DNA from: Shigella phage Henu12
Sequence record: OQ834936
Strand: one strand, 5' to 3'
Length of the DNA stretch: 64,000 nucleotides
This document shows, in pieces, positions 12,924 to 35,120 of the stretch (the stretch's first letter is position 1; every line of letters starts with the position of its first letter). Position numbers and translations under genes: made by a program. Under the pieces are notes generated by a model that was not told where the DNA came from, searched no databases, and was given only the letters and a program-made list of their open reading frames with translations.

Positions 12924-13221
12924 AAGTTACAAATGTTACAGCCATAGCTGATTTACATTTCTTTGGGTCTACAATGTGGTAGATAACTGAACAGTTTCCT
13001 GTTCCGTCTGGTACTGGTTTTGTCCAAGTACGTTCAATATTTGGCTCTCCAAACTCTTTATAGAATCCGTTGGAATAGTGGTTTACCATCTCAATAGCAA
13101 GTGCATCTGGAACGTGACCACGTATCATATACATCTCACAACCATTTCCACCATCACTCACTAGTGGTATAATATCCCATTGTTCTCTAGCCATGATAAG
13201 TTGCCTCATAAACTGTCTCAA
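12916..13221 (-). CDS. hypothetical protein (101 aa)
   Basis: ORF track. Confidence 0.45.
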   Translation of the reverse strand: MRQFMRQLIMAREQWDIIPLVSDGGNGCEMYMIRGHVPDALAIEMVNHYSNGFYKEFGEPNIERTWTKPVPDGTGNCSVIYHIVDPKKCKSAMAVTFVTFD

Positions 13222-13702
13222 GCTTCAACAAGAGAGATATTGCCAGAAATGCGTATTCCCTGTCAAGCATTGGTGGCATATTATTTATAAGATATGCTTC
13301 CTGTTCTTCCCAAGTCATCTTAGGAGCTTCTGGAAGCTTCTCTCCCTGCTTCTGGTTATCTTCTTGAGTCTGGATAAACCAGTTCGAGCAATGGTGCTCT
13401 CCACCTTTTGTCACGGGCTTATGGTGGCCTAATGTGAAAGCTTTCTTTCCAGAATATCTACAAAGCTTATTAAGAGTTGCAATAGTGTTCTTGACAACAC
13501 AGTATTCATAGAGGTTGTCAATAGTATAGTGAGGGTAGTACTGGAACAAGGCACTATCACGAAACTTACCACGGTTCCAAAGTACCATGTGGTTAGAATT
13601 TGAAGGGTCATACTGATGTGAATCGATGAACTCTTGACGCTCATCAAAATCAAGACGAAGAACAGACATTGCAGCAGCACGTTTCAGATTTGAATGGTAC
13701 AT
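13187..13702 (-). CDS. HNH endonuclease-like protein
   Basis: Motif GHHKPVTKGGEHHCSNW (His-His...Asn...His). Confidence 0.55.
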   Translation of the reverse strand: MYHSNLKRAAAMSVLRLDFDERQEFIDSHQYDPSNSNHMVLWNRGKFRDSALFQYYPHYTIDNLYEYCVVKNTIATLNKLCRYSGKKAFTLGHHKPVTKGGEHHCSNWFIQTQEDNQKQGEKLPEAPKMTWEEQEAYLINNMPPMLDREYAFLAISLLLKLETVYEATYHG

Positions 13703-13711
13703 GATTTCTCC

Positions 13712-13742
13712 AAAATAAAAAGGGAACCTTTTACAGTTCCCT
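13712..13742 (-). terminator. intrinsic terminator AGGGAAC-loop-GUUCCCU plus U-tract
   Basis: Hairpin followed by UUUUUAUUUU on minus RNA, then GGAG RBS of the HNH gene. Confidence 0.6.
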
Positions 13743-13754
13743 AATCATATACGT

Positions 13755-14066
13755 TTACTGAGCTATTTTCAAGACTTTTAAGAAACCTTCCTCACCAATT
13801 GCATCATAAACGTTTTCAGTTGGCTTGATAAGGTTATTCAAGCATACAATTTTCTTACGCTTCTTGTCATAAGTAAGCTTCAGTTGTTTCAACTCTTTGT
13901 CATCTTCAGGGTGCTCATTGTACATCTTCACAGCTTCTTTAAAGCTAATGTAGCCACCACCTAGAGTAAGGAAACCTGTACCACAATAGTGGGAGTTGTG
14001 TTTATCAGCCATAAACTGGCACAGGATAGAAATCTGAATTTTACGAGTGTTATAAACCTTTTCCAT
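13755..14066 (-). CDS. hypothetical protein (103 aa)
   Basis: ORF track. Confidence 0.5.
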   Translation of the reverse strand: MEKVYNTRKIQISILCQFMADKHNSHYCGTGFLTLGGGYISFKEAVKMYNEHPEDDKELKQLKLTYDKKRKKIVCLNNLIKPTENVYDAIGEEGFLKVLKIAQ

Positions 14067-14077
14067 TTTAATAATCC

Positions 14078-14335: not shown

Positions 14336-14350
14336 TTTAATATCTCTCTG

Positions 14351-14671
14351 TTAAAGTTTAATACAGAACTGCTTCAGTTCTTCTTCTGTTACTGCGACAA
14401 CTTTATCATCAACTCTCAAGTTTGTCGCGTAAAAGTTTGAGAAATGTGCTTTGTATTTTACTTTAAATACTCCGGCGTCCTCAATCTGCTTCAAGGCTGT
14501 CATTCCAGTGGAATCAAATAGGCTTTTTGTGTAGTTTCTCCACTCTTCAAGAGTTTCTGGATTGACTTTATAGCTACCAAACAGTGACATGTTACAAGCT
14601 ACCATAACAATCTCACCACGTTTGAATCCACCATTACTCTGTACGCCATTGACAGTCGCCTTGCCAGCCAT
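14351..14671 (-). CDS. hypothetical protein (about 106 aa)
   Basis: Start set at internal Met (MAGKATV) preceded by GGAGAAAAG RBS; track ORF extends to 14752 over nrdG. Confidence 0.45.
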   Translation of the reverse strand: MAGKATVNGVQSNGGFKRGEIVMVACNMSLFGSYKVNPETLEEWRNYTKSLFDSTGMTALKQIEDAGVFKVKYKAHFSNFYATNLRVDDKVVAVTEEELKQFCIKL

Positions 14672-15125
14672 ATTCTTTTCTCCACAAGTTTTGGTTATCT
14701 GAACCACGATATGGTTTGTTCGTTGGTTTAGAAGCATCATACTTACCATCAATCACTACGTCAACATATTTCATCACTTCTTTGTTAATTTTTTCATGAA
14801 GCTGAAATCCTGTCCACAGCCAGATAGTCTTGTCTGGATAGATAGACTTAACCTTCTGACAAATCTTGGTGACTTCCTCAATATTACGGTCATCAAGTGG
14901 TTCTCCACCAAGAATTGACAGACCACTTATAGAGTCATCTTCCAAGAGTCTTATAATGCCATAAAGGTTTGCATAAGTAAACTCTTTACCAGCATTAAAC
15001 TTCCAAGATTCCTTGTTAAAACAACCTTCACAGTGATGTTTGCAGCCAGCTACAAAAAGACTGACACGAGCACCTTCACCGTTCGCTGTATCGAATTTTC
15101 GTATTTCCATGTAGTTCATTAGCAC
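14634..15125 (-). CDS. nrdG: anaerobic ribonucleotide reductase activating protein (radical SAM)
   Basis: CxxxCxxC cluster (CKHHCEGC), about 160 aa, adjacent to nrdD. Confidence 0.8.
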   Translation of the reverse strand: MLMNYMEIRKFDTANGEGARVSLFVAGCKHHCEGCFNKESWKFNAGKEFTYANLYGIIRLLEDDSISGLSILGGEPLDDRNIEEVTKICQKVKSIYPDKTIWLWTGFQLHEKINKEVMKYVDVVIDGKYDASKPTNKPYRGSDNQNLWRKEYGWQGDCQWRTE

Positions 15126-15511: not shown

Positions 15512-15608
15512 TTCTCTTTCCTTTCAATGTGTTGTATAAAAGCCCTAACAAGAAACCTAGTAAGACAGAGCCTACTAAGGTGACTAACAAGAATGTCTTA
15601 ATCATCAT
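15504..15608 (-). CDS. small hydrophobic single-TM peptide (34 aa, MMIKTFLLVTLVGSVLLGFLLGLLYNTLKGKRND)
   Basis: Hand translation; start overlaps the upstream TGA (TGATG) and stop overlaps the downstream ATG, so it is translationally coupled on both sides. Confidence 0.4.
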   Translation of the reverse strand: MMIKTFLLVTLVGSVLLGFLLGLLYNTLKGKRND

Positions 15609-16044: not shown

Positions 16045-16108
16045 TGTGGTATCTTCAATAAAAAAGGTGATGCAAGCCTATCAAGACCTACACCACCTTG
16101 TCAACTAC

Positions 16109-22757: not shown

Positions 22758-23076
22758 GGTATCTATCCAAGTTTCGTTTCAAGTAAATCCACTGGTCATC
22801 TGTGCGCTCTACACCCATGAACAGGGGGGCTACAACAACTTTACCAAAAGTATTTCTGTGCTGGCAAATCTCGTAAGAGTACGGTTTATCAATATTCAGC
22901 CCATACTTATACAACACTGCTGCTAATACTTGTTCATTATCCAGAATCGTTTCTGGCTTCTCTCCGTACTTGTCTAACAGTGAATCATTCATAAACACTG
23001 TCATAGAGAGGTTGTAGTTGGAGAAGTGGCTTTTTGCCACCACTTCTTCACCTTTATTAATGTTCTGTGAATCCAT
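22750..23076 (-). CDS. hypothetical protein (108 aa)
   Basis: ORF track. Confidence 0.45.
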   Translation of the reverse strand: MDSQNINKGEEVVAKSHFSNYNLSMTVFMNDSLLDKYGEKPETILDNEQVLAAVLYKYGLNIDKPYSYEICQHRNTFGKVVVAPLFMGVERTDDQWIYLKRNLDRYHV

Positions 23077-23812: not shown

Positions 23813-24042
23813 TAAGCCTCCTTATCTTCAAACAACTTTTGTTGAGACTCAATATAGTCCATTCGTTCTTTGAGTTCAACACGTTTGCTTAACAGATGTT
23901 GAATTTGTGATTCCAGAGCATCCATCTCAGCTTCTGTAGCTGACTTAGCTTTATTGATAGTCTCCTTCAGTGCTGCTACGCCGCTCTGGATTTTAGAAAC
24001 ATGGTCATTTTTGATTTTATTAAACATTTTAAACTCTCTCAT
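23812..24042 (-). CDS. small coiled-coil protein (76 aa)
   Basis: ORF track; heptad-like charged sequence. Confidence 0.45.
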   Translation of the reverse strand: MREFKMFNKIKNDHVSKIQSGVAALKETINKAKSATEAEMDALESQIQHLLSKRVELKERMDYIESQQKLFEDKEA

Positions 24043-24529
24043 TAAGTTTCATGATTTTAGTGATTCTCTTCTCAGCTTCATCATAAGTCTCTTTTGTAAG
24101 AAACTTGATTGCTGCAATGTTTGCATTGTAGAAGAGTCGAAGCTTAGAGTCAATCCTTTTTGTCATGACGTCAAACTTATGTTGTAGGTTAGCTTCGCCG
24201 TAAACTAAGCCACCTCGCGTATAGTAAGTCTGGATAATGTAGAAGTCAAATTCTTTTTCACCAAATGCTTCAATATCTTTCTTGATGTACTCAGAAGAAG
24301 TTTGGTAGACCATCCAATCACTTTCTTTTGTCACTACTTTACGTCTGGTCTTTCCAGCAACCTTCTTCTTAGTGATACTGTTAAACTGCTTTTTACCCAA
24401 ATAATATTGACCAGTCTTTTTACAGTATACTAAGTAGACAAATCCGAAGTACTTAGCGGGGTCAATCTCCCCGCATAGTGAAATCCAGTGACCATAAGTA
24501 GGGCAATTGCCAAAACCTTTAATCTTCAT
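24029..24529 (-). CDS. GIY-YIG-like nuclease domain protein (possible homing endonuclease)
   Basis: Segment FGFVYLVYCKKTGQYYLGKK resembles the GIY-(10 aa)-YIG motif. Confidence 0.4.
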   Translation of the reverse strand: MKIKGFGNCPTYGHWISLCGEIDPAKYFGFVYLVYCKKTGQYYLGKKQFNSITKKKVAGKTRRKVVTKESDWMVYQTSSEYIKKDIEAFGEKEFDFYIIQTYYTRGGLVYGEANLQHKFDVMTKRIDSKLRLFYNANIAAIKFLTKETYDEAEKRITKIMKLNERV

Positions 24530-25026
24530 TCATAAGTTTCTCCGTGATTTGCAAACTCTCTGTGGAGTTCTTCTCTTTTCTTTCTAATTGCTTCTTTGGC
24601 ATCATCAACGTTATCAAACAGACCAAGGAAATGTGTTACACCGTGAACCATAATCCTTGCTCTCCACTTCTGTGAAGCTTTGTTGAATGATACACCTTTT
24701 ACACCAGATGTATTGTTGGAGTGTATTTTTCTATTCCAACAATTTTCAGCTTGAGTGCAAACTCTCAAGTTCATTCTTCGGTTGTCATCAGTAATTCCGT
24801 TACGATGGTCTACACGGTCTGGTAAGAACCCCTCTGTGTAAAGAATGGCTAAATCATGAGCCATGTATGATTTTCTCTTTATGGTAATCCTGATATAACC
24901 CCTTTTATGGGGTGTTCCAGCAACTGAACCAATGACTGTCCTATTAGCCGATTTCTTCAACCAAGTAAAGACCCCTGTTTCGGGGTCATAGTGTAGATAT
25001 TCTTTAAGAATCTGCCGAGTTAACAT
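24526..25026 (-). CDS. HNH homing endonuclease with AP2-like DNA-binding domain
   Basis: Motifs YDPETGVFTW, VDHRNGITDDNRRMNLRVCTQAENCWN and a C-terminal AP2-like block; paralogue of the 34605-35120 gene. Start set at internal Met (track 25062). Confidence 0.65.
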   Translation of the reverse strand: MLTRQILKEYLHYDPETGVFTWLKKSANRTVIGSVAGTPHKRGYIRITIKRKSYMAHDLAILYTEGFLPDRVDHRNGITDDNRRMNLRVCTQAENCWNRKIHSNNTSGVKGVSFNKASQKWRARIMVHGVTHFLGLFDNVDDAKEAIRKKREELHREFANHGETYE

Positions 25027-26077
25027 TTGGTGTCCACCCATACTTATCAAAAGTGAAATCATCTTTCTTATTTCTTTCCTGATAAGCTAAGAAAAAGTGT
25101 TGCTGCATTAACTCTAAAGGTGTTCTGGTAATTGTCTGACCATCCCATGAAACATAAGTGTAAGAGTCTTTCTTAGCATACAGTTCATAAATTGCATCAA
25201 GACATTCTTTGTAAGTAGTTTTACCTTCAAGAGCTTTCATTACTGCAACTTTACCAGCACCCTTTAAACCGAAGTAGTTATCTGCGTTATCACCAGCTAC
25301 GGCTTGGTAGCAGAGGAATTTAAATCCTACTCCAACTGTCTTCTTAGCTTTTGGTGTAGATTTTATTGGGCAATCCCAAATTTCACCAACGTTATTATCA
25401 GCGATAAAAATCAATGGGGCTTTCTCATAAGTCATATCAATGCAGTAAGTACCTTCAGCTTGTCGAAGGTCTTTGTCAATACTCATGAGGGCAGCTTTTT
25501 TACCCATCTTTTCAGCTTTTGCAATAACGATAGAGTCAGCTTCAAACCCATCAAGAATCAGCTTAAACTCTGGTCGTGACAGAAGATACTCACGACAAGC
25601 AACTAGGTGTGTAGGTGTTACAGCTTCTTTTCTGTTACCTTGGTATTGGTGTTCAAGACCTTTGATATCCTTGTGTTTGTGAACACCTTTCTCAGTAAGG
25701 TAACCCATCCATTTGCGTTCTTTACCAACGACTTTCAACCACTCCTGAAGAACTTGCTGTGTAGCCATAATTGCTTCAGCTTCACTTTTAGCTTCTTTCC
25801 AAGTCTGTCTTTCCCATTCATCTTCATCAAAGTCAAGTCCTAACTCTTCAGTTAAAACTCTTTGGTCAGACAACCATTGTGCTGCCAGTTTTGCACTATC
25901 AAAAGCATCGGATTCTTCAGCAGTGATTTTATTCACATACTTGTACTTTGCTTTTTCAACTACACAAGCACCTTTGTAAGCAATGCTATCAGAGTCAATA
26001 AAGACGTGTGTAACGCTCTCTGGGAGCTTTGTTAAGGTGTATTGTTCCATTGTACTCTCCATACGAAAAAGCCCCAT
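25004..26077 (-). CDS. 5'-3' exonuclease / flap endonuclease (RNase H-like)
   Basis: Motif AVAGDNADNYFGLKGAGKVAVMKALEG resembles the 5'-nuclease helix-3-turn-helix signature. Confidence 0.65.
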   Translation of the reverse strand: MGLFRMESTMEQYTLTKLPESVTHVFIDSDSIAYKGACVVEKAKYKYVNKITAEESDAFDSAKLAAQWLSDQRVLTEELGLDFDEDEWERQTWKEAKSEAEAIMATQQVLQEWLKVVGKERKWMGYLTEKGVHKHKDIKGLEHQYQGNRKEAVTPTHLVACREYLLSRPEFKLILDGFEADSIVIAKAEKMGKKAALMSIDKDLRQAEGTYCIDMTYEKAPLIFIADNNVGEIWDCPIKSTPKAKKTVGVGFKFLCYQAVAGDNADNYFGLKGAGKVAVMKALEGKTTYKECLDAIYELYAKKDSYTYVSWDGQTITRTPLELMQQHFFLAYQERNKKDDFTFDKYGWTPNVNSADS

Positions 26078-26096
26078 ACGTCTGTACAGGGCTTTG
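26066..26096 (-). terminator. putative intrinsic terminator (AAGCCC...GGGCUU plus U5)
   Basis: Hairpin with 14-nt loop and U-tract downstream of the SSB candidate. Confidence 0.45.
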
Positions 26097-26112
26097 TAGT
26101 AGTTACTGACTA

Positions 26113-26973
26113 TTACTCGTCGTCAGTTTCGAAATCATCTTCGTCGTCATCATCTGGGTTTGGCAGGTCGTCGTCATCGTCATCACCACCTTTACCTTCA
26201 TCACCAGAATCTTTTGCATCTTCTTCAGTGATTTCACCGTTGTCTTCAACACCTGCAAGACCAAGCATTGCCAGTTCATCTTCATCCAGTTCAGTCTCAG
26301 TAGCACCACCAGTACCACCAGTGTAAGGAACCAGAGTATCAATGATAAATTGTTCCTGAATTGGCTTGGTCAGAACGTTACCTTCAAATGTGTAGAAGTG
26401 AGTCGCCAGAATCACACTACCAAATGAACCGTTACCAACTGCAATATCTGGATGAATTACATCGTAAGTCTTATCATCATCGTGCTTATCAGATTTTGCT
26501 GCCTTGATTTTCTTCATAGGCTGCTTAACTGCAACACGCTTACCGTTGATTTCTTCAACCAGCATTACAGGGAAACTCTGTTTTGCTGACCACACAGCAC
26601 CGTCTTTATATGCTGCTGAACGGCTAACCTTCAGGATGTGATAGGTGTCAGCTTCAAACGGAGGCTCACAACCAAACTTCTCTTCGAAGTCATCTGCATC
26701 AACAGCCTCTGTAGTAACTTTATCCCAACCTTCAGGACTCTTTTTAGACTTGGTGAACTCTTTAAAGAGCTTGTTACCATCTTTTGCCAGAATTGAAACG
26801 CTGTAGTTACAATCTTTGCCCGGAAAATGCTTATCCACAGATTTACCCTTTTGAGGACGTGGAATAGTGTTCAGGTAATAGAACCAAACATCTTTCAGCA
26901 GGTAACGAAGAGTCTCACGTTCTTGACCATTGTACTTCTCTACCGGAGCTTTCATTTTAACAACTTTAGACAT
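26113..26973 (-). CDS. putative single-stranded DNA-binding protein (T7 gp2.5-like, acidic C-terminal tail)
   Basis: C-terminus GDDDDDDLPNPDDDDEDDFETDDE; sits among T7-type replication genes. Confidence 0.5.
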   Translation of the reverse strand: MSKVVKMKAPVEKYNGQERETLRYLLKDVWFYYLNTIPRPQKGKSVDKHFPGKDCNYSVSILAKDGNKLFKEFTKSKKSPEGWDKVTTEAVDADDFEEKFGCEPPFEADTYHILKVSRSAAYKDGAVWSAKQSFPVMLVEEINGKRVAVKQPMKKIKAAKSDKHDDDKTYDVIHPDIAVGNGSFGSVILATHFYTFEGNVLTKPIQEQFIIDTLVPYTGGTGGATETELDEDELAMLGLAGVEDNGEITEEDAKDSGDEGKGGDDDDDDLPNPDDDDEDDFETDDE

Positions 26974-27024
26974 TTTAATACCTCTTTCTCAAATTAACTT
27001 TCAACTCAACTATCAAGGAGTACA

Positions 27025-27053
27025 ATCTTACAGACTTCGTACTCCCTTGTCAA
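27025..27053 (-). promoter_or_regulatory. sigma70-like promoter TTGACAAGG-N-TAAGAT upstream of the SSB candidate
   Basis: -35 at 27053-27048, 17-nt spacer, -10 at 27030-27025. Confidence 0.45.
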
Positions 27054-27058
27054 ACACT

Positions 27059-27196
27059 TTAAGCAGATTTCTTAGCTGCTTTACGAGCCGTCTTACCTGT
27101 ACGAACTCGCTTCTGTACATAGTGTTCAGCAGATTTACCAGCAGTTGCTTTCATGGAATCGCCAAATACTTTCTCGAATGCTTTAGAATGTTTCAT
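27059..27196 (-). CDS. small basic protein (45 aa, MKHSKAFEKVFGDSMKATAGKSAEHYVQKRVRTGKTARKAAKKSA)
   Basis: Hand translation; GGAGAG RBS; ATGA overlap with the upstream stop at 27193. Confidence 0.4.
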   Translation of the reverse strand: MKHSKAFEKVFGDSMKATAGKSAEHYVQKRVRTGKTARKAAKKSA

Positions 27197-27474
27197 GAAT
27201 CTCTCCGATATATTTCATATTCAAAATGTTTATTAGTCAAGGTAAAGGTGTAAACTGTAGATAACCCATCAATCGCTAATGCAAATTGCTCAACATTATC
27301 TTTTGATAAGTGTTCAAACTTTACTTCATGTCCCTTGTTGATGAGTACTTTACCGAACTGCTCTATCTTAGTCAAGCACTCTTTTACAAATTTTTCTCTG
27401 CTTTTTTCTGAATAGAAGGGTTCAAAACCCTCCTTCAGATAACTATCAATCAGTTTCGAACGGACAGTCATCAT
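27193..27474 (-). CDS. hypothetical protein (93 aa)
   Basis: ORF track. Confidence 0.5.
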   Translation of the reverse strand: MMTVRSKLIDSYLKEGFEPFYSEKSREKFVKECLTKIEQFGKVLINKGHEVKFEHLSKDNVEQFALAIDGLSTVYTFTLTNKHFEYEIYRRDS

Positions 27475-29437
27475 TATCCTCGTTAATCACAGGTGGAATG
27501 GTGGAACTTTCACGTTGTTCTTGTGTGTAAATCTCTCCAGATTCACGGTCAAAATCAACATCTTCATAGTGTGGCATAGAGTCATCGTAATGGTCTTCAG
27601 CCTCACCAATACCAAACTGCTGACGAATATTCTCTGCTGCACCATCAATATCAACACCACATCCAGCAGCCTTTACAAGACGACCTGTATCTGGATTATA
27701 CCAAGTGTGACCAGCAATACCAGTTGACTTACCATGACGGCGACATTTTGTTAGCTTGATTTTTGTCAAGTTCTTTTTAACAGGGTCTGGGTCAACCTTG
27801 TTACGCATAAGCAAAATGTTGTTCATGGAAATCTGGAAGTATGCACCAGAACCCTTGATATCTTCTTCAGAAATATCACCACCTTCAGAGTTGGCCTTTT
27901 GACCACCTGCACTCTTACGAACGTGACATACGTTTACCTGAGCATACTGATAACGCTTACAGCGACGAAGTAACTCAGACAGAACTTCTTCTTCATCTGT
28001 ATCAGAGCGTGACAGTGCCAATGTAATAGGGTCAAGGATGATAATCTTACAATCGAGACTGTTAACCAGATAGTCAACAAACTCCAGCAGGTTATCTTGG
28101 TCAATTGCCCCTTGGTGGTCTACGATGTGAATACGACGACCTTTTGACAACTCAGCATGTGCAACCTTAATCTCATCCCAATTACGCTCATCGTAAGGAA
28201 TCTCTGAAATCTGCTTACTAAGATGGATTGCACAGAGCATTTCCATAAGTTCTTCGTAAGTATCTTCTACAGGAATTACACCGATGTTGTACTCAGTATC
28301 TTTCCATGCTTTGTAAATCATCTCACGAGTATATGCAGATTTACCTACAGATGAAGGTGCAGCAAGGGTTGTAATCTCACCTAAACCATACCCGCCATAA
28401 GTCAGCTTATTCAAATCCCCGAAAGAATCTGGGAAAGGAATTAAAGGAATCTGACCACGATTCTTCATAGCATCGAAACCATCTGCAAAGTTCTTGATAC
28501 CAGCAGGGCAGTAACGAGGTGCATTGTAGATTCGTTGTTTAAATCCTTCTAAGACTGTATCTTTGTCTTTGAAGAACTTAGTCCACCACTCACTAAGGTC
28601 TTTAATACCTTCAGGATACTGGAATAGTCTTACTTTCTCAATAGGTAAGATACCAGCAGCTTCCTTAGTTGCTTTAGCCCCTGCTTCATCATTATCAAAG
28701 CATAGGTAAATCTCATCAAAGGAAGTAATATACTGATAGTTCTCTTTGATAGACTTAACATTAGCACCAGATGGTACAGAAACGTGGCAGTAATTCTTAC
28801 GTCTAGACTTATCTTTAATTGCTAAAGAAGTCATGTAGATTGCTGTAGCACATTCCATCTCACCTTCCCAGATGAAAAGACGGTTACCACCTTCTGGAGC
28901 AATCCATGAACCGAACATAGCCAGTTCACCTTTAATATCTCCGACACCACCAGAAAAGTCTTTCAACTTCCCACGTAAGTGCTCTTTGTGATAGTCATCT
29001 GGATATTTGTGACGAACACGATAACCTACATGTTGCAACTTACCATCTTCATCCTTTTTGTATGTTGGATAGAAATGTGCATCAATATCACCGTTATCAT
29101 CAATATCAACTTTAATACCGAGACGCTCAAGGACTTTTGCAGGAATCTTCCTATCTTTTAAATCCATTGCTTCTAGGTTTTCTTTCACATCATCCAAATC
29201 CATACCACGAAATGTACGGTTTTTATTCTCTGAACCTGAAGTATGAGTACTCACAATCTGCCCTTTATCAAAATCCCACTCTGGAAAACCTTTTCCACAA
29301 CTGAAACATGTCATTGAATATGAACCGTCATCATGACGATATATAGAACCTGCATCTGAAGATAAACATTGAGGGCGTGGACATGCACAGTGGCCTACAA
29401 ATGTTCCAGCATCTTTCAGTTTTCTCTGTTTAGCCAT
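27446..29437 (-). CDS. DNA primase-helicase (T7 gp4-like)
   Basis: N-terminal zinc-binding CxxC...CxxC; C-terminal Walker A (SSVGKSAYT) helicase domain. Confidence 0.85.
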   Translation of the reverse strand: MAKQRKLKDAGTFVGHCACPRPQCLSSDAGSIYRHDDGSYSMTCFSCGKGFPEWDFDKGQIVSTHTSGSENKNRTFRGMDLDDVKENLEAMDLKDRKIPAKVLERLGIKVDIDDNGDIDAHFYPTYKKDEDGKLQHVGYRVRHKYPDDYHKEHLRGKLKDFSGGVGDIKGELAMFGSWIAPEGGNRLFIWEGEMECATAIYMTSLAIKDKSRRKNYCHVSVPSGANVKSIKENYQYITSFDEIYLCFDNDEAGAKATKEAAGILPIEKVRLFQYPEGIKDLSEWWTKFFKDKDTVLEGFKQRIYNAPRYCPAGIKNFADGFDAMKNRGQIPLIPFPDSFGDLNKLTYGGYGLGEITTLAAPSSVGKSAYTREMIYKAWKDTEYNIGVIPVEDTYEELMEMLCAIHLSKQISEIPYDERNWDEIKVAHAELSKGRRIHIVDHQGAIDQDNLLEFVDYLVNSLDCKIIILDPITLALSRSDTDEEEVLSELLRRCKRYQYAQVNVCHVRKSAGGQKANSEGGDISEEDIKGSGAYFQISMNNILLMRNKVDPDPVKKNLTKIKLTKCRRHGKSTGIAGHTWYNPDTGRLVKAAGCGVDIDGAAENIRQQFGIGEAEDHYDDSMPHYEDVDFDRESGEIYTQEQRESSTIPPVINEDNDDCPFETD

Positions 29438-29630
29438 TCACACCTCTTCGTTGTAGTTCTGCCTTAAGACCGTTTTCAATCTTATCAAGCTCATGGATTT
29501 CTTCTGCAATCTCTTTCCTTCTTGAAGCGACCCTTTCAAGTCGCTCCATCATAACTTCTTTGGAAAGAGATGAGAGTTCCACTGTACGGTGGTCAATTAC
29601 TTTAAAGTTATTATCTCTCATCTTCAACAC
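29430..29630 (-). CDS. small coiled-coil protein (66 aa)
   Basis: ORF track. Confidence 0.4.
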   Translation of the reverse strand: MLKMRDNNFKVIDHRTVELSSLSKEVMMERLERVASRRKEIAEEIHELDKIENGLKAELQRRGVNG

Positions 29631-29633
29631 CTT

Positions 29634-30374
29634 TTATAGATTGATAATGGTTTTAAGTTTACTCTCTAACTCTTCCATCGTTCCGTTATTCTGGATAATA
29701 TCACGGGAGAAGTTAGTGGAGATACCTTTTTCAGAACTGTGTGACGCAACCTGAATAGCATTGTTTCTGGTCACCTCAATTATCTGACTATCATAACTCT
29801 GAAGAAACTCTGCTTCAAGGTCAAATCGTAAATCACATATTAGAGCAATACCTATATGAGACTTGTTATGACATTCTCCAAAGAATGATTCCATTCTCTC
29901 AGCAAGGTCTCTTATCCAGAACTTCTCACCTAACACTTTACGGACAACTTCACTACCCCATATCTGCTGGATTTGGCGTGATGAGAATATGTACTCTTCT
30001 TTTAAACCGAGCCTTGTTTTGAAAGTCGGTTTAGCCACCTTCTTAATTTCAGTGATAAGTTTATCTGCAATTTCACCACACAATTTATCATCACTGTGGA
30101 TACCTTTGTCTTTCATAATTTTGTAGAAAGCCCACTTAACTTTTTGTAATACTTCTGAGAATGTCAAGTCAAACTTTTTAGGAGTTTCCTTTGTTGCCCC
30201 ATACAGGTCTTGCCAATCCAAATCAAAGATGAATCCAGCAGTTGCTTTTAAGTTGTCTGCAAACGCAAAAACTTTAACAGTATAGCCAGAGTCAATCAAG
30301 AGGTTTTTCACAAGTGTGCATGATGTATCTTTTCCAGAGCGAGCCTTTCCAGTGAATGCAATTACTGATTTCAT
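29634..30374 (-). CDS. deoxynucleoside monophosphate kinase (T4 gene 1-like)
   Basis: P-loop AFTGKARSGKDT and C-terminal NNGTMEELESKLKTI resemble T4 dNMP kinase. Confidence 0.7.
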   Translation of the reverse strand: MKSVIAFTGKARSGKDTSCTLVKNLLIDSGYTVKVFAFADNLKATAGFIFDLDWQDLYGATKETPKKFDLTFSEVLQKVKWAFYKIMKDKGIHSDDKLCGEIADKLITEIKKVAKPTFKTRLGLKEEYIFSSRQIQQIWGSEVVRKVLGEKFWIRDLAERMESFFGECHNKSHIGIALICDLRFDLEAEFLQSYDSQIIEVTRNNAIQVASHSSEKGISTNFSRDIIQNNGTMEELESKLKTIINL

Positions 30375-30384
30375 TGTGTATCTC

Positions 30385-30418
30385 CATAATAAAAAGCCCC
30401 CAATTAAGGAGGCTTAAA
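30385..30418 (-). terminator. putative intrinsic terminator (AGCCUCC...GGGGGCU plus U-tract)
   Basis: 7-bp stem with one G-U pair, followed by UUUUAUUAU. Confidence 0.45.
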
Positions 30419-30430
30419 AGTTAATAACTG

Positions 30431-31225
30431 TTACTGCAAGCGAGCACCAGACAGTTCACGTTCAGCCATGCTGTCTAACTGTTCAACAAACTCATCACCA
30501 AAGTTGATTGCCAGCTTAGTACTCAGTACTGCTGCACCAGTTTGCGTGAAGACTTCGTTAAGTGCTTTTGAGTGAGCACCTTGAGAGATTTCTTCAACAA
30601 ACGCAGGGTCTGCTTCAAGCATCTTAGAAACCTCTAAGAGAGCATGGATACCCATAATGCTGAAGATTGCATTGAGCATTGAAGTTAATTGAACCTGAAC
30701 AGGATTCATTTCAATATCTTCACTAATCTCAACAAGACGCTTCATAGTCTCTTCAGTGAGAGTCAGAACTCGTTCAGAGATTTCTTCAAAGCCCCAATCC
30801 AGTTTTGCATAACGTGGAGCTTGGTCACTCATACGTTTTTCAAGTGAAGCCATTACAGATGCAACAGATGCACAGATACACTTCATGATTTCTGCATCAG
30901 ACATGTTATCAAGTTCTTTGATACCAGCTTCAGTCATCTGGATATAACCACCAGAATACATCTCTGCAAATACGTATGCAGCAAAGGCATCAACACCAAT
31001 TGCAATGGTTTTCAAAGCAACTGTCTGGTTACTCAGAAGATATTCAACCTCTTTACGGAAATCTTCGTCATTCTCTACAGCGTTTTTTACAACACGCAGA
31101 GATTCAGGGATAAATTTTCCTGACAGTGAGTTGCTACGCATAATGATAGCAAGAGTCTCAACAGTGTTCAGCATGAATGCTTCGTCAATACCTTTTTCTT
31201 CCAGAATCTCATTTACAGTTTTCAT
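30431..31225 (-). CDS. hypothetical protein (264 aa)
   Basis: ORF track. Confidence 0.5.
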   Translation of the reverse strand: MKTVNEILEEKGIDEAFMLNTVETLAIIMRSNSLSGKFIPESLRVVKNAVENDEDFRKEVEYLLSNQTVALKTIAIGVDAFAAYVFAEMYSGGYIQMTEAGIKELDNMSDAEIMKCICASVASVMASLEKRMSDQAPRYAKLDWGFEEISERVLTLTEETMKRLVEISEDIEMNPVQVQLTSMLNAIFSIMGIHALLEVSKMLEADPAFVEEISQGAHSKALNEVFTQTGAAVLSTKLAINFGDEFVEQLDSMAERELSGARLQ

Positions 31226-31649
31226 CTTTAATCTCTCTCATTTTGTTAATAGTAAGTCGTGATAATCTTAAGCTTTCTTGTGAAGAGAAGTCAAGTCCTT
31301 TTTCAGACCGTGGGAAGTAATTTCTGTCCCACGTATTCTCTGCATCCTGAAGCAGTTGGGATAGACTATCTAAGTCCGTTCCATTTTGCAACTTATTTTT
31401 TAAGGTATCTATCAAAAAGATTGTGTCTTTCGCTTTACGTCTTTCTGAAGATATCTCTTTCATGTGCTCAAATACAGAACACTTTAAACCTTCGTCGTAT
31501 CCACTTGATAGTTCTATCTCATGCTGAACATCAACCATTCGACGATGTTGATAAGCATACTCCTTCTGAGCCTCGATGTAAAGTGCTTCAACTCTTTCTA
31601 AAGCTTGGACAAGGTTATTGATATCTGGGTGAACGTACATCCTCTGCAT
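31209..31649 (-). CDS. hypothetical protein (146 aa)
   Basis: ORF track; first gene of the minus block after the divergent region. Confidence 0.5.
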   Translation of the reverse strand: MQRMYVHPDINNLVQALERVEALYIEAQKEYAYQHRRMVDVQHEIELSSGYDEGLKCSVFEHMKEISSERRKAKDTIFLIDTLKNKLQNGTDLDSLSQLLQDAENTWDRNYFPRSEKGLDFSSQESLRLSRLTINKMREIKDENCK

Positions 31650-31908
31650 GATTGCCTCTGTTAAGTATCTATAAAGATTTTAATCTCTTATCTTTATGTA
31701 TGTTATACATATAACTTTAAAGCTTTTTAAAAGCTATTAAAAATCTTTTAAGACTTTTAAAGAAACTGTATAGTTAATCTATAAAGGGAGTCTATTAAGA
31801 TAAAACCCACTTCGAAAAGACTAACACCTTGTCAAGTAGTTTGTCAACTTGCTTTTTGCAGAAAATTGCTGTAGGGTATTATCCAGAATGATTTGAGAGG
31901 GAGTAAAA
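31650..31908. promoter_or_regulatory. AT-rich divergent intergenic region with short repeats and two TTGTCAA copies
   Basis: Strand-switch point between the minus and plus blocks; near-palindrome AGCTTTTTAAAAGCT. Confidence 0.5.
31855..31882 (+). promoter_or_regulatory. candidate sigma70-like promoter TTTGCA-N16-TATTAT for the DNA polymerase gene
   Basis: Read on plus strand; followed by GAGGGAG RBS and ATG at 31909. Confidence 0.4.
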
Positions 31909-34608
31909 ATGGACAATGTAGATTTCGAAAAATTACATTTGGTTGGTGATACAGAAACTGATGGGTTGCTCCTTGAGTTTACAAAAGCACACGTAATGGC
32001 TTTCGCAGACTATAAAGATGACAGTGATGAACCTGCTGTGTGGGTTTTCACTGATGAGCCTATTCTTGGTCACAAGTATACAAAATACATCAAAGGTGGT
32101 CTGCGTGAAGGTGTTGAGTTTGCACTGAAAGCTAAACGTCTTTGTATCCACAATGGTCTTGGTTATGACTGGTGGGTGTTTAATCACATTGCACCTGACC
32201 TGTGGAACTTTGAGAATCCTAAGTGTAAGCCTTGGAGTGACTTCTTTCAGGATTCACTTATCCAATCTCGCGTACAGTGGATGGATAGACCTACACCAAA
32301 AGGTTACAAAGGTGCTCATGGTTTGGCTGCATGGGGTGCTCGTGTTGGTGTTCGTAAACCAGAGATTGAAGAGTGGGGTGTATGGAATGCAGAGATTCTT
32401 ACTCGTGTTGTAGAAGATATTAAGATTAACGCCAAAACTAAACGTGCTCTTGATAATGAGTACCTTAAGCTTAAGAAGTGTGGTGTTGACACTTATGAAA
32501 CCTATATGCGAGCTAAAGAAACATCTTTCTGGATGAGCCAGCAAGCTATCAACGGTTGGAAAGCTGATGTAGAACTTATGCAGTTCCATGTTAAAGAACT
32601 TGACAAGTTAACTAATGAGTTAGCTGCTGAGGTTGAGCCACACCTGCCACCAACTATCAAGACAAAAGGTAAGGTCACAGGTGAAGAGTTTGCTAAGTCT
32701 TGGAATGAGTATGTGGATACATTTGGTCACGTTGACGGCTTAAAAAGGATTACCAAGTACCCTAAGACAAAGTATCGTGAACAGATGCGTGAAGGTGAGT
32801 TGAAGCAATACCCTATCAAGCCATATGGAAAGCCAACTACAAAGATTTTTAACGTTGAGAAACGTAACTGCTACACACCAACTAATACGGTTACCAAAGA
32901 AGAGTACCCTGAAGGTTTCGTAGCAATGAAAGATGCTCGTGCAGTTTGTAATGAACTGAATGAGAAGATTGGGAAGAAGTGTAAAGATTGGAAACCAGTT
33001 AAGACTGTGAAGATTGTGAAGTACTATAATGTGCATGTTGTAAATCACTTCGAGTTGGAGTCAAGTCGCTACACTGGTTTGATTGATGCACCATTCACAC
33101 CAATTGAGTTTGAAGTTTCACGAATGACTCAGGTAGCTGTGGTGAAGGATTACTTAAAATCTGTTGGTTGGATTCCTGATGATTGGAACTACAAAAAAGA
33201 TTCTGATGGTCGTCCGGTTAAGGTTTGCAGATTCAAAGACAACAAAAAGATGATTCGCAAACATCCTAAGTGGGATGAGATGGTTGAGCGTTGTGGGTTG
33301 AACTATATTGAGCATGAAGGTGTCTATTACATCGAGCATAACTGGTCTGTTAAGAAGTACACAGATGTGCTTGAGCCTTGCTTGATTAGGACTTCACCAA
33401 AGCTTACAGAGTCTTCTTATGATACAATCGAAGGTGAGCTTGGACAGAAGATTGCGAAGTACTATACTTTGATGCACCGACGCAGGACTATTGAGAACTC
33501 AAAGGATGATGAGAAAGGTTGGCTGAACCAGATTCGTCCAGATGGTCGTTTGAGTGCAGGTGCAATGGTGTTTGGTACTTCTACTGGACGTATGACTCAG
33601 TATGGTATTGTAAACGTACCTTCTGGTGCTGCTGTTTACGGTGAGCCAATGAGGGCAGTGTGGATTTGTGAAGAGGGAACCAACGTAGTATCTGTTGATA
33701 TGAACTCTGCACAGCTTGTACTACTCTGTAACTTCATGGGTGATAAAGACTTCACCAAAGCGGTAACAGAGGGTAAAGAAGAGATTGAGTTTGTTCGTCA
33801 AGAGGATGGAAGATACTACTGCAAACACTTTGACCAGTATCTGAATCCAGAGATTGACAAGTATCTGCGTTATGACTCTGAAAACGATTTGTACGTAGTT
33901 TACTCAGGGACTGATGCTCACACTCTGAACAGTATCTACTTCAGCCTTAATGATGAGCAAGATATCTTGACTTGTCGTGCTACTCAGGATGAGAATCTTC
34001 TTCATGAGATTAGCAAGGGACGTAAGAAAGCTAAGAATGGTATCTATGCCCTGTTGTTCGGTGCAGGTGATGAGAAGTTTGCTAAAACAATTAAAGCAGC
34101 AACTACTCAGGAAGGTGCATTGACTAAGCAGACTTACTTTGTGCGCTTGCCGAAGATTAAGAAACTGTTAGACAACTTGGAAGCTGATTTCAAAGCAACT
34201 AAGAAAGCACTTGAAGAGGTGTTTGGTAAAACTGCTGCGATAGCTAAAGGTGGTTTTGTGAAGGTTGCTGGAGCTTGGCTGTGGTGTAAGTCTCCACACA
34301 AGCTGTTAAATTACCTTTTGATGGGTTCAGAAAGTCAAGTCCAGAATGAAGCAATTAACCTTGCATGTCGTCGTATGATTGATGAAGGTTTGATGAAGTT
34401 GAATGGTCGTAAACCAGCTATTGGCGCTCGCTTACTCTGTGCTTACCACGACGAAACAAGTTGGGAATGTCCAGAGCACATGACAGCAGATGTGAAAGCA
34501 GTAACTGACTGGTATTATGGTCAAGCATCTAAGAACCTTGGACTAAGGAAAGAAACCTTGGTAACAGGTACTGGTAAAGTTGGTAAGAGCTGGTATGAGG
34601 TACATTGA
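31909..34608 (+). CDS. DNA polymerase, family A (T7 gp5-like) with 3'-5' exonuclease domain
   Basis: DTETDG exo motif; HGLAAWGARVG, YALLFGAGDEK and HDE blocks resemble T7 DNA polymerase. Confidence 0.9.
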   Translation: MDNVDFEKLHLVGDTETDGLLLEFTKAHVMAFADYKDDSDEPAVWVFTDEPILGHKYTKYIKGGLREGVEFALKAKRLCIHNGLGYDWWVFNHIAPDLWNFENPKCKPWSDFFQDSLIQSRVQWMDRPTPKGYKGAHGLAAWGARVGVRKPEIEEWGVWNAEILTRVVEDIKINAKTKRALDNEYLKLKKCGVDTYETYMRAKETSFWMSQQAINGWKADVELMQFHVKELDKLTNELAAEVEPHLPPTIKTKGKVTGEEFAKSWNEYVDTFGHVDGLKRITKYPKTKYREQMREGELKQYPIKPYGKPTTKIFNVEKRNCYTPTNTVTKEEYPEGFVAMKDARAVCNELNEKIGKKCKDWKPVKTVKIVKYYNVHVVNHFELESSRYTGLIDAPFTPIEFEVSRMTQVAVVKDYLKSVGWIPDDWNYKKDSDGRPVKVCRFKDNKKMIRKHPKWDEMVERCGLNYIEHEGVYYIEHNWSVKKYTDVLEPCLIRTSPKLTESSYDTIEGELGQKIAKYYTLMHRRRTIENSKDDEKGWLNQIRPDGRLSAGAMVFGTSTGRMTQYGIVNVPSGAAVYGEPMRAVWICEEGTNVVSVDMNSAQLVLLCNFMGDKDFTKAVTEGKEEIEFVRQEDGRYYCKHFDQYLNPEIDKYLRYDSENDLYVVYSGTDAHTLNSIYFSLNDEQDILTCRATQDENLLHEISKGRKKAKNGIYALLFGAGDEKFAKTIKAATTQEGALTKQTYFVRLPKIKKLLDNLEADFKATKKALEEVFGKTAAIAKGGFVKVAGAWLWCKSPHKLLNYLLMGSESQVQNEAINLACRRMIDEGLMKLNGRKPAIGARLLCAYHDETSWECPEHMTADVKAVTDWYYGQASKNLGLRKETLVTGTGKVGKSWYEVH

Positions 34609-35120
34609 TGCGAGATTGTGGATTCACACATGAACAGTTAAAGTCTTGGTTAAACTATGACCCCGAAACAGGGGTCTTAACGTGGATTGGCAGGCCTCCA
34701 CATAGTAGTAGGGTGGTTATTGGGAGCCAAGCCGGAGCAATCAAGCGCACAAGGTCTGGTGTGTATATGCACACACAGATTTTAGGATACAGGACAGGCA
34801 ATCACCGAATTGCTTGGTTCTGGATGACAGGCAAGTGGCCTGATAAACACATTGACCACAAAGATGGAGATGGTTTGAATAACGCTTGGGACAATCTCAG
34901 GGAGGCCACAAAAGAACAGAACATGTCTAATAGGAGACAACCCAGAACATCAAAAAACTTAAAAGGTACAAGTAGAAGCAAGTCTGGTAAGTGGATAGCC
35001 CAGATTAACCATAATGGCAAGACTATACATATAGGTACATACACAACAGAAGAAGAAGCCCATAAAGCTTACTGTGAAGCTGCTATTAAACTCCACGGAG
35101 AGTTTGCAAAACTAAGTTGA
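34605..35120 (+). CDS. HNH homing endonuclease with AP2-like domain
   Basis: YDPETGVLTW, IDHKDGDGLNNAWDNLREATKEQN and AP2-like C-terminus; ATGA overlap with the polymerase stop. Confidence 0.7.
   Translation: MMRDCGFTHEQLKSWLNYDPETGVLTWIGRPPHSSRVVIGSQAGAIKRTRSGVYMHTQILGYRTGNHRIAWFWMTGKWPDKHIDHKDGDGLNNAWDNLREATKEQNMSNRRQPRTSKNLKGTSRSKSGKWIAQINHNGKTIHIGTYTTEEEAHKAYCEAAIKLHGEFAKLS

What the first reader, a model, noticed from the sequence alone, without database searches (positions are those of the whole stretch)
13187..35120. Multiple free-standing homing-endonuclease-like genes, including two HNH-AP2 paralogues
Seen: HNH-AP2 genes at 24526-25026 and 34605-35120 share YDPETGV(F/L)TW and the HNH core; the latter overlaps the DNA polymerase stop. 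A GIY-YIG-like gene (24029-24529) abuts the first, and a further HNH gene lies at 13187-13702. Established: such endonucleases are selfish mobile genes in virulent phages. Inference: insertion next to the polymerase and exonuclease genes suggests recent mobility and marker exclusion against related phages.
Basis: partly seen in the sequence, partly recalled or inferred. Interest (0 to 1): 0.45.

Follow-up and report, generated by a model that had tools for sequence, protein, structure and literature searches.

The report
Known homing endonuclease genes in phage
This Felix O1-like phage carries two selfish HNH-AP2 endonuclease genes that comparison with relatives shows were exchanged recently, plus two nuclease-like genes that are fixed in the whole subfamily; the pattern is real, but it is ordinary and already annotated in close relatives.

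Summary
The window is a Mooglevirus (Ounavirinae, Felix O1-like). Its closest record is Shigella phage Henu11. All four ORFs exist as described.

Two are canonical HNH_3+AP2 genes, at 24526-25026(-) and 34608-35120(+). They are 35% identical paralogues. Both behave as free-standing homing endonuclease genes:
- They are clean ~500-nt cassettes at gene boundaries, present or absent in all four combinations within the genus.
- The polymerase-adjacent copy is 97-98% identical in nucleotides to copies in another genus (dS 0.09-0.14). The adjoining polymerase 3' end has dS ~1.0 to the same phage.
- The exonuclease-adjacent copy sits in a backbone 100% identical to Henu11. Its core (24588-24958) matches the Moogle allele at 183 of 183 informative sites.
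- dN/dS is 0-0.13.

The other two genes are not sporadic. The SegE-type GIY-YIG gene (24029-24529) and the 171-aa gene (13187-13702) occur in essentially all Ounavirinae, and their identity tracks phylogeny. The 171-aa protein has no Pfam hit and only a weak, indirectly supported HNH-like core.

Cleavage and marker exclusion remain untested. Close relatives already annotate these genes as homing endonucleases, and the published literature describes the phenomenon. Interest is low.

The parts
34608..35120 (+). HNH-AP2 free-standing homing endonuclease gene next to the DNA polymerase ('F-type' allele). It has no recognisable promoter of its own and its start overlaps the polymerase stop (TGATG).
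   Evidence: Pfam HNH_3 and AP2 are both above cut-off. It is absent from Moogle, Sf14 and Sf17 as a clean gap. It is 100% identical to the Henu11 copy and 98.2/97.3% nt identical to the Felixounavirus EC106 and heid copies, but only 83.9% to same-genus Michonne. dN/dS is 0-0.05.
24526..25026 (-). HNH-AP2 free-standing homing endonuclease gene between the exonuclease and GIY-YIG genes ('A' allele). An alternative start lies at 25062.
   Evidence: Pfam HNH_3 is above cut-off; AP2 is below it. PHROG 99 scores 1.8e-72. The gene is absent from Michonne, Sf17, EC106 and mistaenkt. It is 97.6% aa identical in Moogle, 83% in the wV8/heid type and 55-58% in Henu11 and Sf14, all at the same locus.
24588..24958 (.). 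Conversion tract: the core of the exonuclease-adjacent HNH-AP2 gene (residues 23-147) is of Moogle type inside a Henu11-type backbone.
   Evidence: The window equals Moogle at 183 of 183 sites where Henu11 and Moogle differ. Flanks 24476-24565 and 24991-25142 equal Henu11. A second short Moogle-like patch lies at 24428-24470. Sliding identity supports this.
24961..24990 (-). Block coding for YDPETGVFTW. It contains a perfect inverted repeat (GACCCC-GAAACA-GGGGTC, 24970-24987) and is the right-hand crossover interval of the allele swap.
   Evidence: It is 28/30 nt identical to the block in the other HNH-AP2 gene, with a 23-nt identical run. It is identical in the A, A' and B alleles. There are no informative sites at 24959-24990. 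The pattern occurs only twice in the window against 0.02 expected.
34656..34685 (+). The same YDPETGVLTW / inverted-repeat block in the polymerase-adjacent gene (repeat at 34659-34676).
   Evidence: It is not conserved at nucleotide level in about 60 non-Ounavirinae homologues.
24029..24529 (-). Single-domain SegE-type GIY-YIG nuclease gene. It is a fixed core gene of the subfamily and its start overlaps the HNH-AP2 stop (ATGA).
   Evidence: Pfam PF19835 scores 1.7e-26 over residues 22-138 of 166, with no second domain. About 296 phage records hold a copy at >=60% identity; values are 98.8% in Henu11, ~95% in Mooglevirus, ~86% in Felixounavirus and ~62% in Erwinia phages. In the Felixounavirus, Mooglevirus and Suspvirus rows listed, it lies next to the exonuclease or the HNH gene.
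13187..13702 (-). 171-aa conserved gene with an HNH-like (H-N-N) beta-beta-alpha core. It is a core gene, not sporadic.
   Evidence: tblastn identity is 100% in Henu11, 96-98% in Mooglevirus, 92% in SUSP1, 76-80% in Felixounavirus, 50% in Erwinia phages and 42-46% in phi92-like phages, with one copy per record in nearly all records. The family has only 19 clusters among 1.84 billion representatives.
25004..26077 (-). 5'-3' exonuclease gene (flank). Its last ~12 codons are remodelled where the HNH-AP2 cassette begins, and its 3' ~600 nt are mosaic.
   Evidence: Junction sequences are. In the 25050-25125 bin the window is 98% identical to EC106 and 97% to Si3 (both Felixounavirus), against 70-77% to Mooglevirus. 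From 25650 onward the order reverses.
31909..34608 (+). Family A DNA polymerase gene (flank). It is intact and has no intron in this window.
   Evidence: Relatives EC106 and Si3 carry a group I intron at the position matching window ~34050.
34372..34530 (+). Dimorphic patch in the polymerase 3' end, 80-240 nt upstream of the endonuclease gene.
   Evidence: The window is 72-73% identical to Henu11 here but 100% on both sides. The window haplotype is 99.5% Michonne-like; the Henu11 haplotype is 100% Sf13/ESh20-like.
34586..34607 (+). Last polymerase codons, recoded in genomes that carry the endonuclease gene (SWYEVH* versus SWLEVH*). The recoding creates a GAGG ribosome-binding site for that gene. 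This is a candidate target or immunity region (inference).
   Evidence: Alignments. All carriers have TA(T/C)GAGGT(A/G)CATTGATG. Genomes without the gene have (C/T)T(T/A)GAAGT(C/T)CACTAATAGTG.
35116..35171 (+). Conserved intergenic block that directly follows the polymerase stop in genomes lacking the endonuclease gene. It marks the right edge of the cassette.
   Evidence: No canonical sigma-70 promoter is called here.
11994..12024 (.). Empty site of a third HNH-AP2 locus, at the junction of the nicotinamide phosphoribosyltransferase and ribose-phosphate pyrophosphokinase genes. Moogle carries a gene there (gp6).
   Evidence: Moogle has 502 extra nt here. Its product has HNH_3 (1e-17) and a weak AP2 hit.

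Best explanation
The region holds two different kinds of nuclease gene.

(1) Two HNH_3+AP2 genes, one next to the exonuclease and one next to the polymerase, are free-standing homing endonuclease genes of a long-known family.
- Each is a ~500-nt cassette placed exactly at a gene boundary.
- Each appears to be expressed by read-through and translational coupling from the upstream replication gene. This is inferred from the overlapping stop and start codons and the lack of a recognisable promoter.
- During co-infection the enzyme presumably cuts or nicks the allele that lacks the cassette, near the insertion point. Recombinational repair then copies the cassette, with some flanking sequence, into the recipient. 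This step is inferred and not tested.
- The comparative record shows that these cassettes, or their cores, have moved recently between genomes and between genera, and that they are under purifying selection.

(2) The SegE-type GIY-YIG gene and the 171-aa HNH-like gene are fixed, vertically inherited core genes of the Ounavirinae. They either went to fixation long ago or serve the phage. One possible role is a DNA-processing or host-DNA nuclease, by analogy with T4 endonuclease II, which is also a small GIY-YIG enzyme; that comparison rests on my own knowledge and was not tested. They are not currently mobile.
For: Identity of the phage: megablast gives 96% to Henu11 and 93-94% to Michonne, Moogle and the Sf phages.

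Domains. The catalytic DH...N...N residues are kept in all six aligned alleles.

Sporadic distribution: within Mooglevirus all four states occur.
- Window and Henu11 carry both genes.
- Michonne carries only the polymerase-adjacent gene.
- Moogle and Sf14 carry only the exonuclease-adjacent gene.
- Sf17 carries neither.

Only ~48 records hold the polymerase-adjacent gene at >=60% identity. Only 27 hold the exonuclease-adjacent A or A' alleles at >=80%. About 270-300 Ounavirinae records exist in the collection.

Clean junctions.

Incongruence: the polymerase-adjacent gene has dS 0.09 and 0.14 to EC106 and heid, while the polymerase 3' 600 nt have dS 1.03 to heid. Against Michonne the gene has dS 1.12 and the polymerase 0.27.

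Recent swap: 183 of 183 informative sites inside flanks that are 100% identical to Henu11.

Selection: dN/dS is 0-0.13.

Core status of the other two genes: with synteny.

Literature:
- Six endonuclease sequences have been described in Felix O1 (PMC8300805).
- HNH+AP2 is a described family of homing endonuclease genes, and nuclease genes sit at boundaries of genetic exchange between phages (PMC10448857, citing Magnani 2004).
Against: No cleavage or cross data exist for these proteins.

Mosaic patches between the window and Henu11 also occur away from any endonuclease gene (12900-13100, 14400-14900, 29700-31000). Ordinary homologous recombination could therefore account for the exchanges without endonuclease action.

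The AP2 hit of the exonuclease-adjacent protein is below Pfam's cut-off.

Strong purifying selection is also what a domesticated gene would show.

For the 171-aa protein the HNH assignment rests on weak or indirect matches.
Confidence: 0.8

Rival explanations
1. All four genes are currently mobile free-standing homing endonuclease genes.
For: All four have nuclease-type cores. GenBank records of relatives label the GIY-YIG gene 'GIY-YIG homing endonuclease'.
Against: The GIY-YIG and 171-aa genes are present in about all Ounavirinae records, and the loci examined show them at the same position. Their identity tracks genus. None of the five Mooglevirus relatives whose loci cover the 171-aa locus lacks that gene, and none of the nine loci covering the GIY-YIG locus lacks the GIY-YIG gene. 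The GIY-YIG protein has no detectable DNA-binding domain.
Confidence: 0.07
2. The HNH-AP2 genes are passively shuffled accessory genes. The presence/absence pattern and mosaic tracts come from ordinary homologous recombination between co-infecting Ounavirinae, not from endonuclease-initiated homing. The proteins may be inactive or serve another role, such as DNA binding or regulation through AP2.
For: Mosaic patches unrelated to nuclease genes are common between the window and Henu11. The crossovers of the allele swap lie in short blocks of shared sequence, as simple homologous recombination predicts. EC106 lacks the exonuclease-adjacent gene yet shares the 98%-identical exonuclease flank.
Against: Catalytic residues are intact in every allele. 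dN/dS is 0-0.13 over the whole gene, nuclease domain included. The cassettes are exact single-gene units at gene boundaries. Several divergent alleles occupy the same site. The family is an established class of homing endonuclease genes (PMC10448857).
Confidence: 0.12
3. The polymerase-adjacent HNH-AP2 works by 'collaborative homing': it cuts the intron insertion site in motif B of intron-less polymerase genes and mobilises the group I intron found in Felixounavirus polymerases.
For: A group I intron lies ~555 nt upstream of the gene in EC106 (Rfam 62.9 bits) and Si3. It occurs in roughly 100 Ounavirinae records. Many intron-bearing records also carry this HNH-AP2 gene.
Against: The window, Henu11, heid, Michonne and mistaenkt carry the gene but no intron. 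The window's intron-insertion site is identical to that of Sf14, which lacks the gene, so the window would be cutting its own polymerase. The larger intron versions carry their own 'endonuclease VII' ORF. Several intron-bearing records are not in the gene list.
Confidence: 0.03

Closest known systems
HNH-AP2 homing endonuclease family (Pfam HNH_3 + AP2; Magnani, Sjolander and Hake 2004, as cited in PMC10448857)
   Same: The architecture is the same: an N-terminal YDPETG motif, an HNH_3 nuclease domain and a C-terminal AP2 DNA-binding domain. The family is found in phages. The same genes are already annotated as 'HNH homing endonuclease, contains AP2/ERF domain' in Michonne gp037 and Sf14 gp075.
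   Different: Nothing substantive differs. The exonuclease-adjacent copy scores below Pfam's AP2 cut-off but aligns throughout with copies that pass it.
T4 free-standing homing endonuclease genes (mobA-E of HNH type, segA-G of GIY-YIG type), which drive marker exclusion and co-conversion (e.g. SegG, Liu et al. 2003, cited in PMC10448857)
   Same: They are intergenic cassettes between conserved replication or nucleotide-metabolism genes. They are sporadic among relatives and are flanked by mosaic tracts.
   Different: The DNA-binding module differs (AP2). Activity, target site and exclusion are untested here. The window's SegE-type GIY-YIG gene is fixed in the subfamily and lacks a DNA-binding domain, unlike the Seg proteins (my recollection of their architecture).
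I-HmuI (PDB 1U3E), the intron-encoded HNH nicking endonuclease in the phage SPO1 DNA polymerase gene
   Same: The HNH core matches only weakly, above the usual significance threshold (E 0.05). It is also associated with a phage DNA polymerase gene.
   Different: I-HmuI is intron-encoded and has a different DNA-binding module (both points from my own knowledge). The window gene is free-standing and lies downstream of an intron-less polymerase gene.
ICP1 'IPA-HNH' and T5orf172 nuclease genes at boundaries of genetic exchange (Barth et al. 2023, PMC10448857)
   Same: Nuclease genes sit at recombination breakpoints between related phages, and their domains are shuffled.
   Different: IPA-HNH domains are too divergent for the HNH_3 profile. 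The window genes are canonical HNH_3.

Membership tests
Pfam HNH_3 (PF13392) | Profile score above the gathering cut-off (24.8 bits) | tested here: met
   53.9 bits for 34608-35120 and 32.7 bits for 24526-25062. The 13187-13702 protein has no hit.
Pfam AP2 (PF00847) | Profile score above the gathering cut-off (33.3 bits) | tested here: inconclusive
   The polymerase-adjacent protein scores 38.1 bits (met) and matches plant AP2 structures (WRI1, 2.9e-8). The exonuclease-adjacent protein scores 19.3 bits (below cut-off) but aligns to the same columns.
Free-standing homing endonuclease gene | Sporadic presence or absence at one locus among close relatives | tested here: met
   Met for both HNH-AP2 genes. 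Not met for the GIY-YIG and 171-aa genes.
Free-standing homing endonuclease gene | A discrete cassette between intact conserved genes, not inside an intron or intein | tested here: met
   The polymerase and exonuclease ORFs are intact.
Free-standing homing endonuclease gene | Phylogeny of the gene disagrees with that of its flanks (horizontal spread) | tested here: met
   dS values of the gene and its flank are.
Free-standing homing endonuclease gene | Site-specific cleavage of the allele lacking the gene, and biased inheritance in crosses | not testable with these tools
   This needs biochemistry and phage crosses.
GIY-YIG homing endonuclease (Seg-like) | GIY-YIG catalytic domain | tested here: met
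   PF19835 SegE_GIY-YIG scores 93.3 bits against a cut-off of 25.
GIY-YIG homing endonuclease (Seg-like) | Separate DNA-binding domain and sporadic distribution | tested here: not met
   The domain covers residues 22-138 of 166 and no other domain is found. The gene is present in ~296 records with identity tracking taxonomy.
HNH / His-Me finger superfamily (171-aa protein) | Beta-beta-alpha-metal core with conserved His and Asn residues, detectable by profile or by fold | tested here: inconclusive
   No Pfam hit. HNH PHROGs score 2.6e-5 and 6e-4. H93, N107 and N116 are conserved. The family profile hits P0037 at 1.3e-7, and its matched stretch is Pfam HNH and HNH_5. The model has pLDDT 61, and Foldseek top hits are HNH domains but with E above 1.

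The most novel reading that the evidence does not exclude
The Ounavirinae HNH-AP2 genes may be built for cassette exchange. Short blocks conserved at the nucleotide level bracket a highly divergent nuclease and AP2 core, and could serve as fixed recombination joints. One block is the 23-nt YDPETGV block with its GACCCC-N6-GGGGTC inverted repeat. It is identical in the A, A' and B alleles and in the paralogue at the other locus. The other is the IRKKREEL block. Through such joints, cores of different specificity could displace one another at one locus and perhaps move between loci. Because AP2 domains are reported to prefer G/C runs, the inverted repeat could also be a binding or autoregulatory site for the enzyme itself.
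Probability: 0.12. Interest if true: 0.45.

Novelty: already known. Interest (0 to 1): 0.18.

Why it matters
The practical value is small.
- These genes mark the places where Felix O1-like genomes recombine, so those segments should be masked in phylogenies and watched when therapeutic phages are mixed.
- The window and Henu11 form a near-isogenic pair that differs by one endonuclease core. Moogle, Sf14, Sf17 and Michonne supply natural empty sites. Together they would make a convenient system for testing homing and marker exclusion by an HNH-AP2 enzyme, for which I found no activity data in the papers searched.
- The two fixed nuclease-fold genes are candidates for a domesticated or housekeeping role, but nothing here shows what that role is.

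Tried and rejected
- PDB sequence searches. The 171-aa protein and the GIY-YIG protein gave nothing meaningful. The GIY-YIG protein did not match T4 endonuclease II at sequence level.
- Structure of the 171-aa protein. The model was low-confidence (pLDDT 61) and no Foldseek match reached E<=0.001. I use it only as a weak hint.
- Promoter and terminator scan around the polymerase-adjacent gene. No canonical promoter is called at the conserved intergenic block, so I do not call it a promoter.
- Collaborative homing with the polymerase group I intron. I rejected this because the intron-insertion site is unchanged in intron-less carriers of the gene, and because intron and gene occur independently.
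- A family-wide RNA or DNA hairpin in the YDPETGV codons. I rejected this because ~60 diverse viral homologues keep the amino acids but vary the codons (2-4 of 6 pairs). Only the Ounavirinae copies have the perfect repeat. Local RNA folds are not unusually stable (z -0.9 and -1.4).
- A search for further endonuclease paralogues in the window found none.
- The 103-aa ORF at 13755-14066, labelled 'putative homing endonuclease' in Sf17, is DUF7390 / PHROG 4462 with no nuclease signal.

Full report
**What the window is.** Megablast of 23000-36000 finds 279 phage records, all Felix O1-like (Ounavirinae). The best is Shigella phage Henu11 at 96%, followed by Citrobacter phages Michonne and Moogle and Shigella phages Sf13-Sf19 at 93-94%. 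All of these are genus Mooglevirus. Felixounavirus and Suspvirus records score ~83%. The finding lies in the replication and nucleotide-metabolism module. That module holds the ribonucleotide reductase genes, exonuclease, primase/helicase, dNMP kinase, DNA polymerase and ligase.

The four ORFs are present as stated.
- The polymerase-adjacent protein has Pfam HNH_3 (53.9 bits) and AP2 (38.1 bits), both above cut-off.
- The exonuclease-adjacent protein has HNH_3 (32.7 bits) and a sub-threshold AP2 hit (19.3 bits).
- The 24029-24529 protein is SegE_GIY-YIG (1.7e-26).
- The 13187-13702 protein has no Pfam hit.

The two HNH-AP2 proteins are 35% identical. They have no other paralogue in the 64 kb.

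The polymerase stop and the ATG at 34608 share one base (TGATG). The stop of the exonuclease-adjacent HNH gene overlaps the GIY-YIG start (ATGA). Its own start lies inside the last codons of the exonuclease gene.

I fetched nine relatives and located both loci in each.

| Phage | Genus | Exonuclease-adjacent locus | Polymerase-adjacent locus |
|---|---|---|---|
| Henu11 | Mooglevirus | divergent 'B' allele, 55% aa | 100% |
| Michonne | Mooglevirus | empty | 88.8% aa |
| Moogle | Mooglevirus | 'A' allele, 97.6% aa | empty |
| Sf14 | Mooglevirus | 'B' allele, 58% aa | empty |
| Sf17 | Mooglevirus | empty | empty |
| heid | Felixounavirus | 'A'' allele, 82.5% aa | 99.4% aa |
| EC106 | Felixounavirus | empty | 100% aa |
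| Si3 | Felixounavirus | 'B'-like copy, 51% aa, matching from residue 15 only | 99.4% aa |
| mistaenkt | Suspvirus | empty | 90% aa |

All four combinations therefore occur within one genus. Database-wide, ~48 records hold the polymerase-adjacent gene at >=60% identity. Only 27 hold the A or A' alleles at >=80%. About 270-300 Ounavirinae records are in the collection.

**Both cassettes have clean edges.** Where the polymerase-adjacent gene is absent, the polymerase stop is followed after 5 nt by a conserved intergenic block (TTGACAAGGTGCTCATGG...). In the window, ~505 nt lie exactly between the two, and the gene's own TGA sits inside that block. The last polymerase codons are recoded almost synonymously in all carriers (SWYEVH* versus SWLEVH*). 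The recoding creates a GAGG ribosome-binding site. I suggest, as inference only, that this stretch or the nearby dimorphic patch contains the target and immunity determinants. At the other locus, ~500 nt replace ~25 nt between the exonuclease and GIY-YIG genes, and the last ~12 exonuclease codons are remodelled.

**Evidence for recent movement.**

Polymerase-adjacent gene:

| Compared with | dS of the endonuclease gene | dS of the adjacent polymerase 3' 600 nt |
|---|---|---|
| EC106 (Felixounavirus) | 0.09 (98.2% nt identity) | not computable (range spans the EC106 intron) |
| heid (Felixounavirus) | 0.14 (97.3% nt identity) | 1.03 |
| Michonne (same genus) | 1.12 (83.9% nt identity) | 0.27 |

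The gene's history is the reverse of its flank's, so it crossed genus boundaries recently. dN/dS is 0-0.05.

Exonuclease-adjacent gene: the window and Henu11 are 100% identical on both sides, but only ~50% identical across 24600-24975. At the 256 sites where Henu11 and Moogle differ, the window follows this pattern:
- Henu11 at 24302-24419 (18 sites)
- Moogle at 24428-24470 (12 sites)
- Henu11 at 24476-24565 (9 sites)
- Moogle at 24588-24958 (183 sites, no exception)
- Henu11 at 24991-25142 (34 sites)

This is a patchy conversion tract. It replaces residues 23-147, which cover the nuclease and most of AP2, in an otherwise identical backbone.

Flanking mosaicism:
- The exonuclease 3' ~600 nt of the window is closer to Felixounavirus than to Mooglevirus; in the 25050-25125 bin it is 98% identical to EC106 and 97% to Si3.
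- The polymerase 3' patch 34372-34530 exists as two ~75%-identical haplotypes that are shuffled within the genus. The window has the Michonne type and Henu11 has the Sf13/ESh20 type.

**A caution on the mosaic evidence.** The window and Henu11 differ at about seven patches in 27 kb. Several have no endonuclease gene nearby, for example 29700-31000. Ordinary recombination alone could therefore produce such patterns. The nuclease's role in starting these exchanges remains an inference.

**The other two genes are not sporadic.**
- GIY-YIG gene: ~296 records hold a copy at >=60% identity. Values are 98.8% in Henu11, ~95% in Mooglevirus, ~86% in Felixounavirus and ~62% in Erwinia phages. In the Felixounavirus, Mooglevirus and Suspvirus rows listed, the gene lies next to the exonuclease or the HNH gene. 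Distant homologues are widespread in cyanomyophages, where they are mislabelled 'NAD synthetase' (PHROG 447). The protein is essentially a bare catalytic domain (residues 22-138 of 166).
- 171-aa gene: there is one copy per record in nearly all records. Identity is 100% in Henu11, 96-98% in Mooglevirus, 92% in SUSP1, 76-80% in Felixounavirus, 50% in Erwinia phages and 42-46% in phi92-like phages. The gene is syntenic in all five Mooglevirus relatives whose fetched loci cover that locus.

The HNH character of the 171-aa protein is plausible but weak.
- H93, G100, G101, N107 and N116 are conserved.
- PHROG HNH hits score 2.6e-5 and 6e-4.
- A profile search of 1.84 billion representatives finds only 19 clusters. 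One of them, P0037, carries Pfam HNH and HNH_5 exactly where the profile matches.
- The model and fold search are not significant.

**A small oddity.**
- TATGACCCCGAAACAGGGGTCTT is identical in both window genes and in the A, A' and B alleles.
- It contains a perfect 6-bp inverted repeat, found only at these two places in the window against 0.02 expected.
- The right-hand crossover of the allele swap falls inside it.
- About 60 diverse viral homologues keep the peptide but not the codons.
- The local RNA folds are not unusually stable.

So this is not a family-wide structural element. The simplest reading is a shared homology block that serves as a recombination joint within the Ounavirinae. 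I leave it as unexplained.

**Comparison with what is known.** HNH+AP2 is a described homing endonuclease family (Magnani et al. 2004, as cited in PMC10448857). Six endonuclease sequences were reported for Felix O1 (PMC8300805). The link between phage nuclease genes, gene conversion and recombination boundaries is published (PMC10448857, PMC8594841). The very genes in this window are annotated as HNH/AP2 or GIY-YIG homing endonucleases in Michonne, Moogle, Sf14, Sf17 and heid.

**Verdict.** The result is ordinary and already known, and I score interest at 0.18.

Noticed in passing
L004 (EC106) 13122-13397; L008 (Si3) ~12642-13446; corresponds to window ~34050: Felixounavirus relatives carry a group I intron (Rfam RF00028, 62.9 bits in EC106) in DNA polymerase motif B (KNGIYA|LLFGAG). 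Larger versions hold an ORF annotated 'endonuclease VII'. The query matched 126 phage records in all, roughly 100 of them Ounavirinae. The window's polymerase has no intron.
   Followed up: partly
window 24970-24987 and 34659-34676: A perfect inverted repeat, GACCCC-N6-GGGGTC, lies inside the YDPETGV codons of both HNH-AP2 genes. It is part of a 23-nt block identical between genes that are only 35% identical in protein. The block is conserved only in Ounavirinae copies and its function is unknown.
   Followed up: partly
window 29700-31000: A 1.3-kb patch covering the dNMP kinase gene and the gene annotated 'minor tail protein' is only 65-87% identical to Henu11. The backbone on either side is >=99% identical, and no nuclease gene is nearby.
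   Followed up: no
window 12902-12939 junction; L001 (Henu11) 1649-2576: Henu11 has two extra 149-aa genes (gp29 and gp30, no significant Pfam family) between the ribose-phosphate pyrophosphokinase gene and the 101-aa ORF. They are absent from the window and from Michonne, Moogle, Sf14 and Sf17.
   Followed up: partly
window 35172-35390: The small gene just downstream of the polymerase-adjacent endonuclease gene is a variable slot. The window and Michonne have a 72-aa ORF (PHROG 4230). Moogle, Sf14, Sf17 and mistaenkt have an unrelated 66-aa gene there. heid and EC106 have nothing.
   Followed up: partly
window 13755-14066: This 103-aa ORF is annotated 'putative homing endonuclease' in Sf17. 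It is DUF7390 / PHROG 4462 with no nuclease signal, so the label looks unfounded.
   Followed up: yes
window 11994-12024; L005 (Moogle) 1463-1954: A third HNH-AP2 locus lies between the nicotinamide phosphoribosyltransferase and ribose-phosphate pyrophosphokinase genes. Moogle carries a gene there, and SUSP1-type phages appear to from IMG/VR loci. The site is empty in the window.
   Followed up: partly
L008 (Si3) 3104-3580: The exonuclease-adjacent HNH-AP2 copy in Si3 matches only from residue 15 and is annotated as a 177-nt fragment. It may be a decaying copy.
   Followed up: no
window ~31650-31910 and ~42010-42050: GC skew changes sign at these points, together with gene orientation. The first point is a divergent intergenic region between the 31209-31649(-) gene and the polymerase gene.
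   Followed up: no
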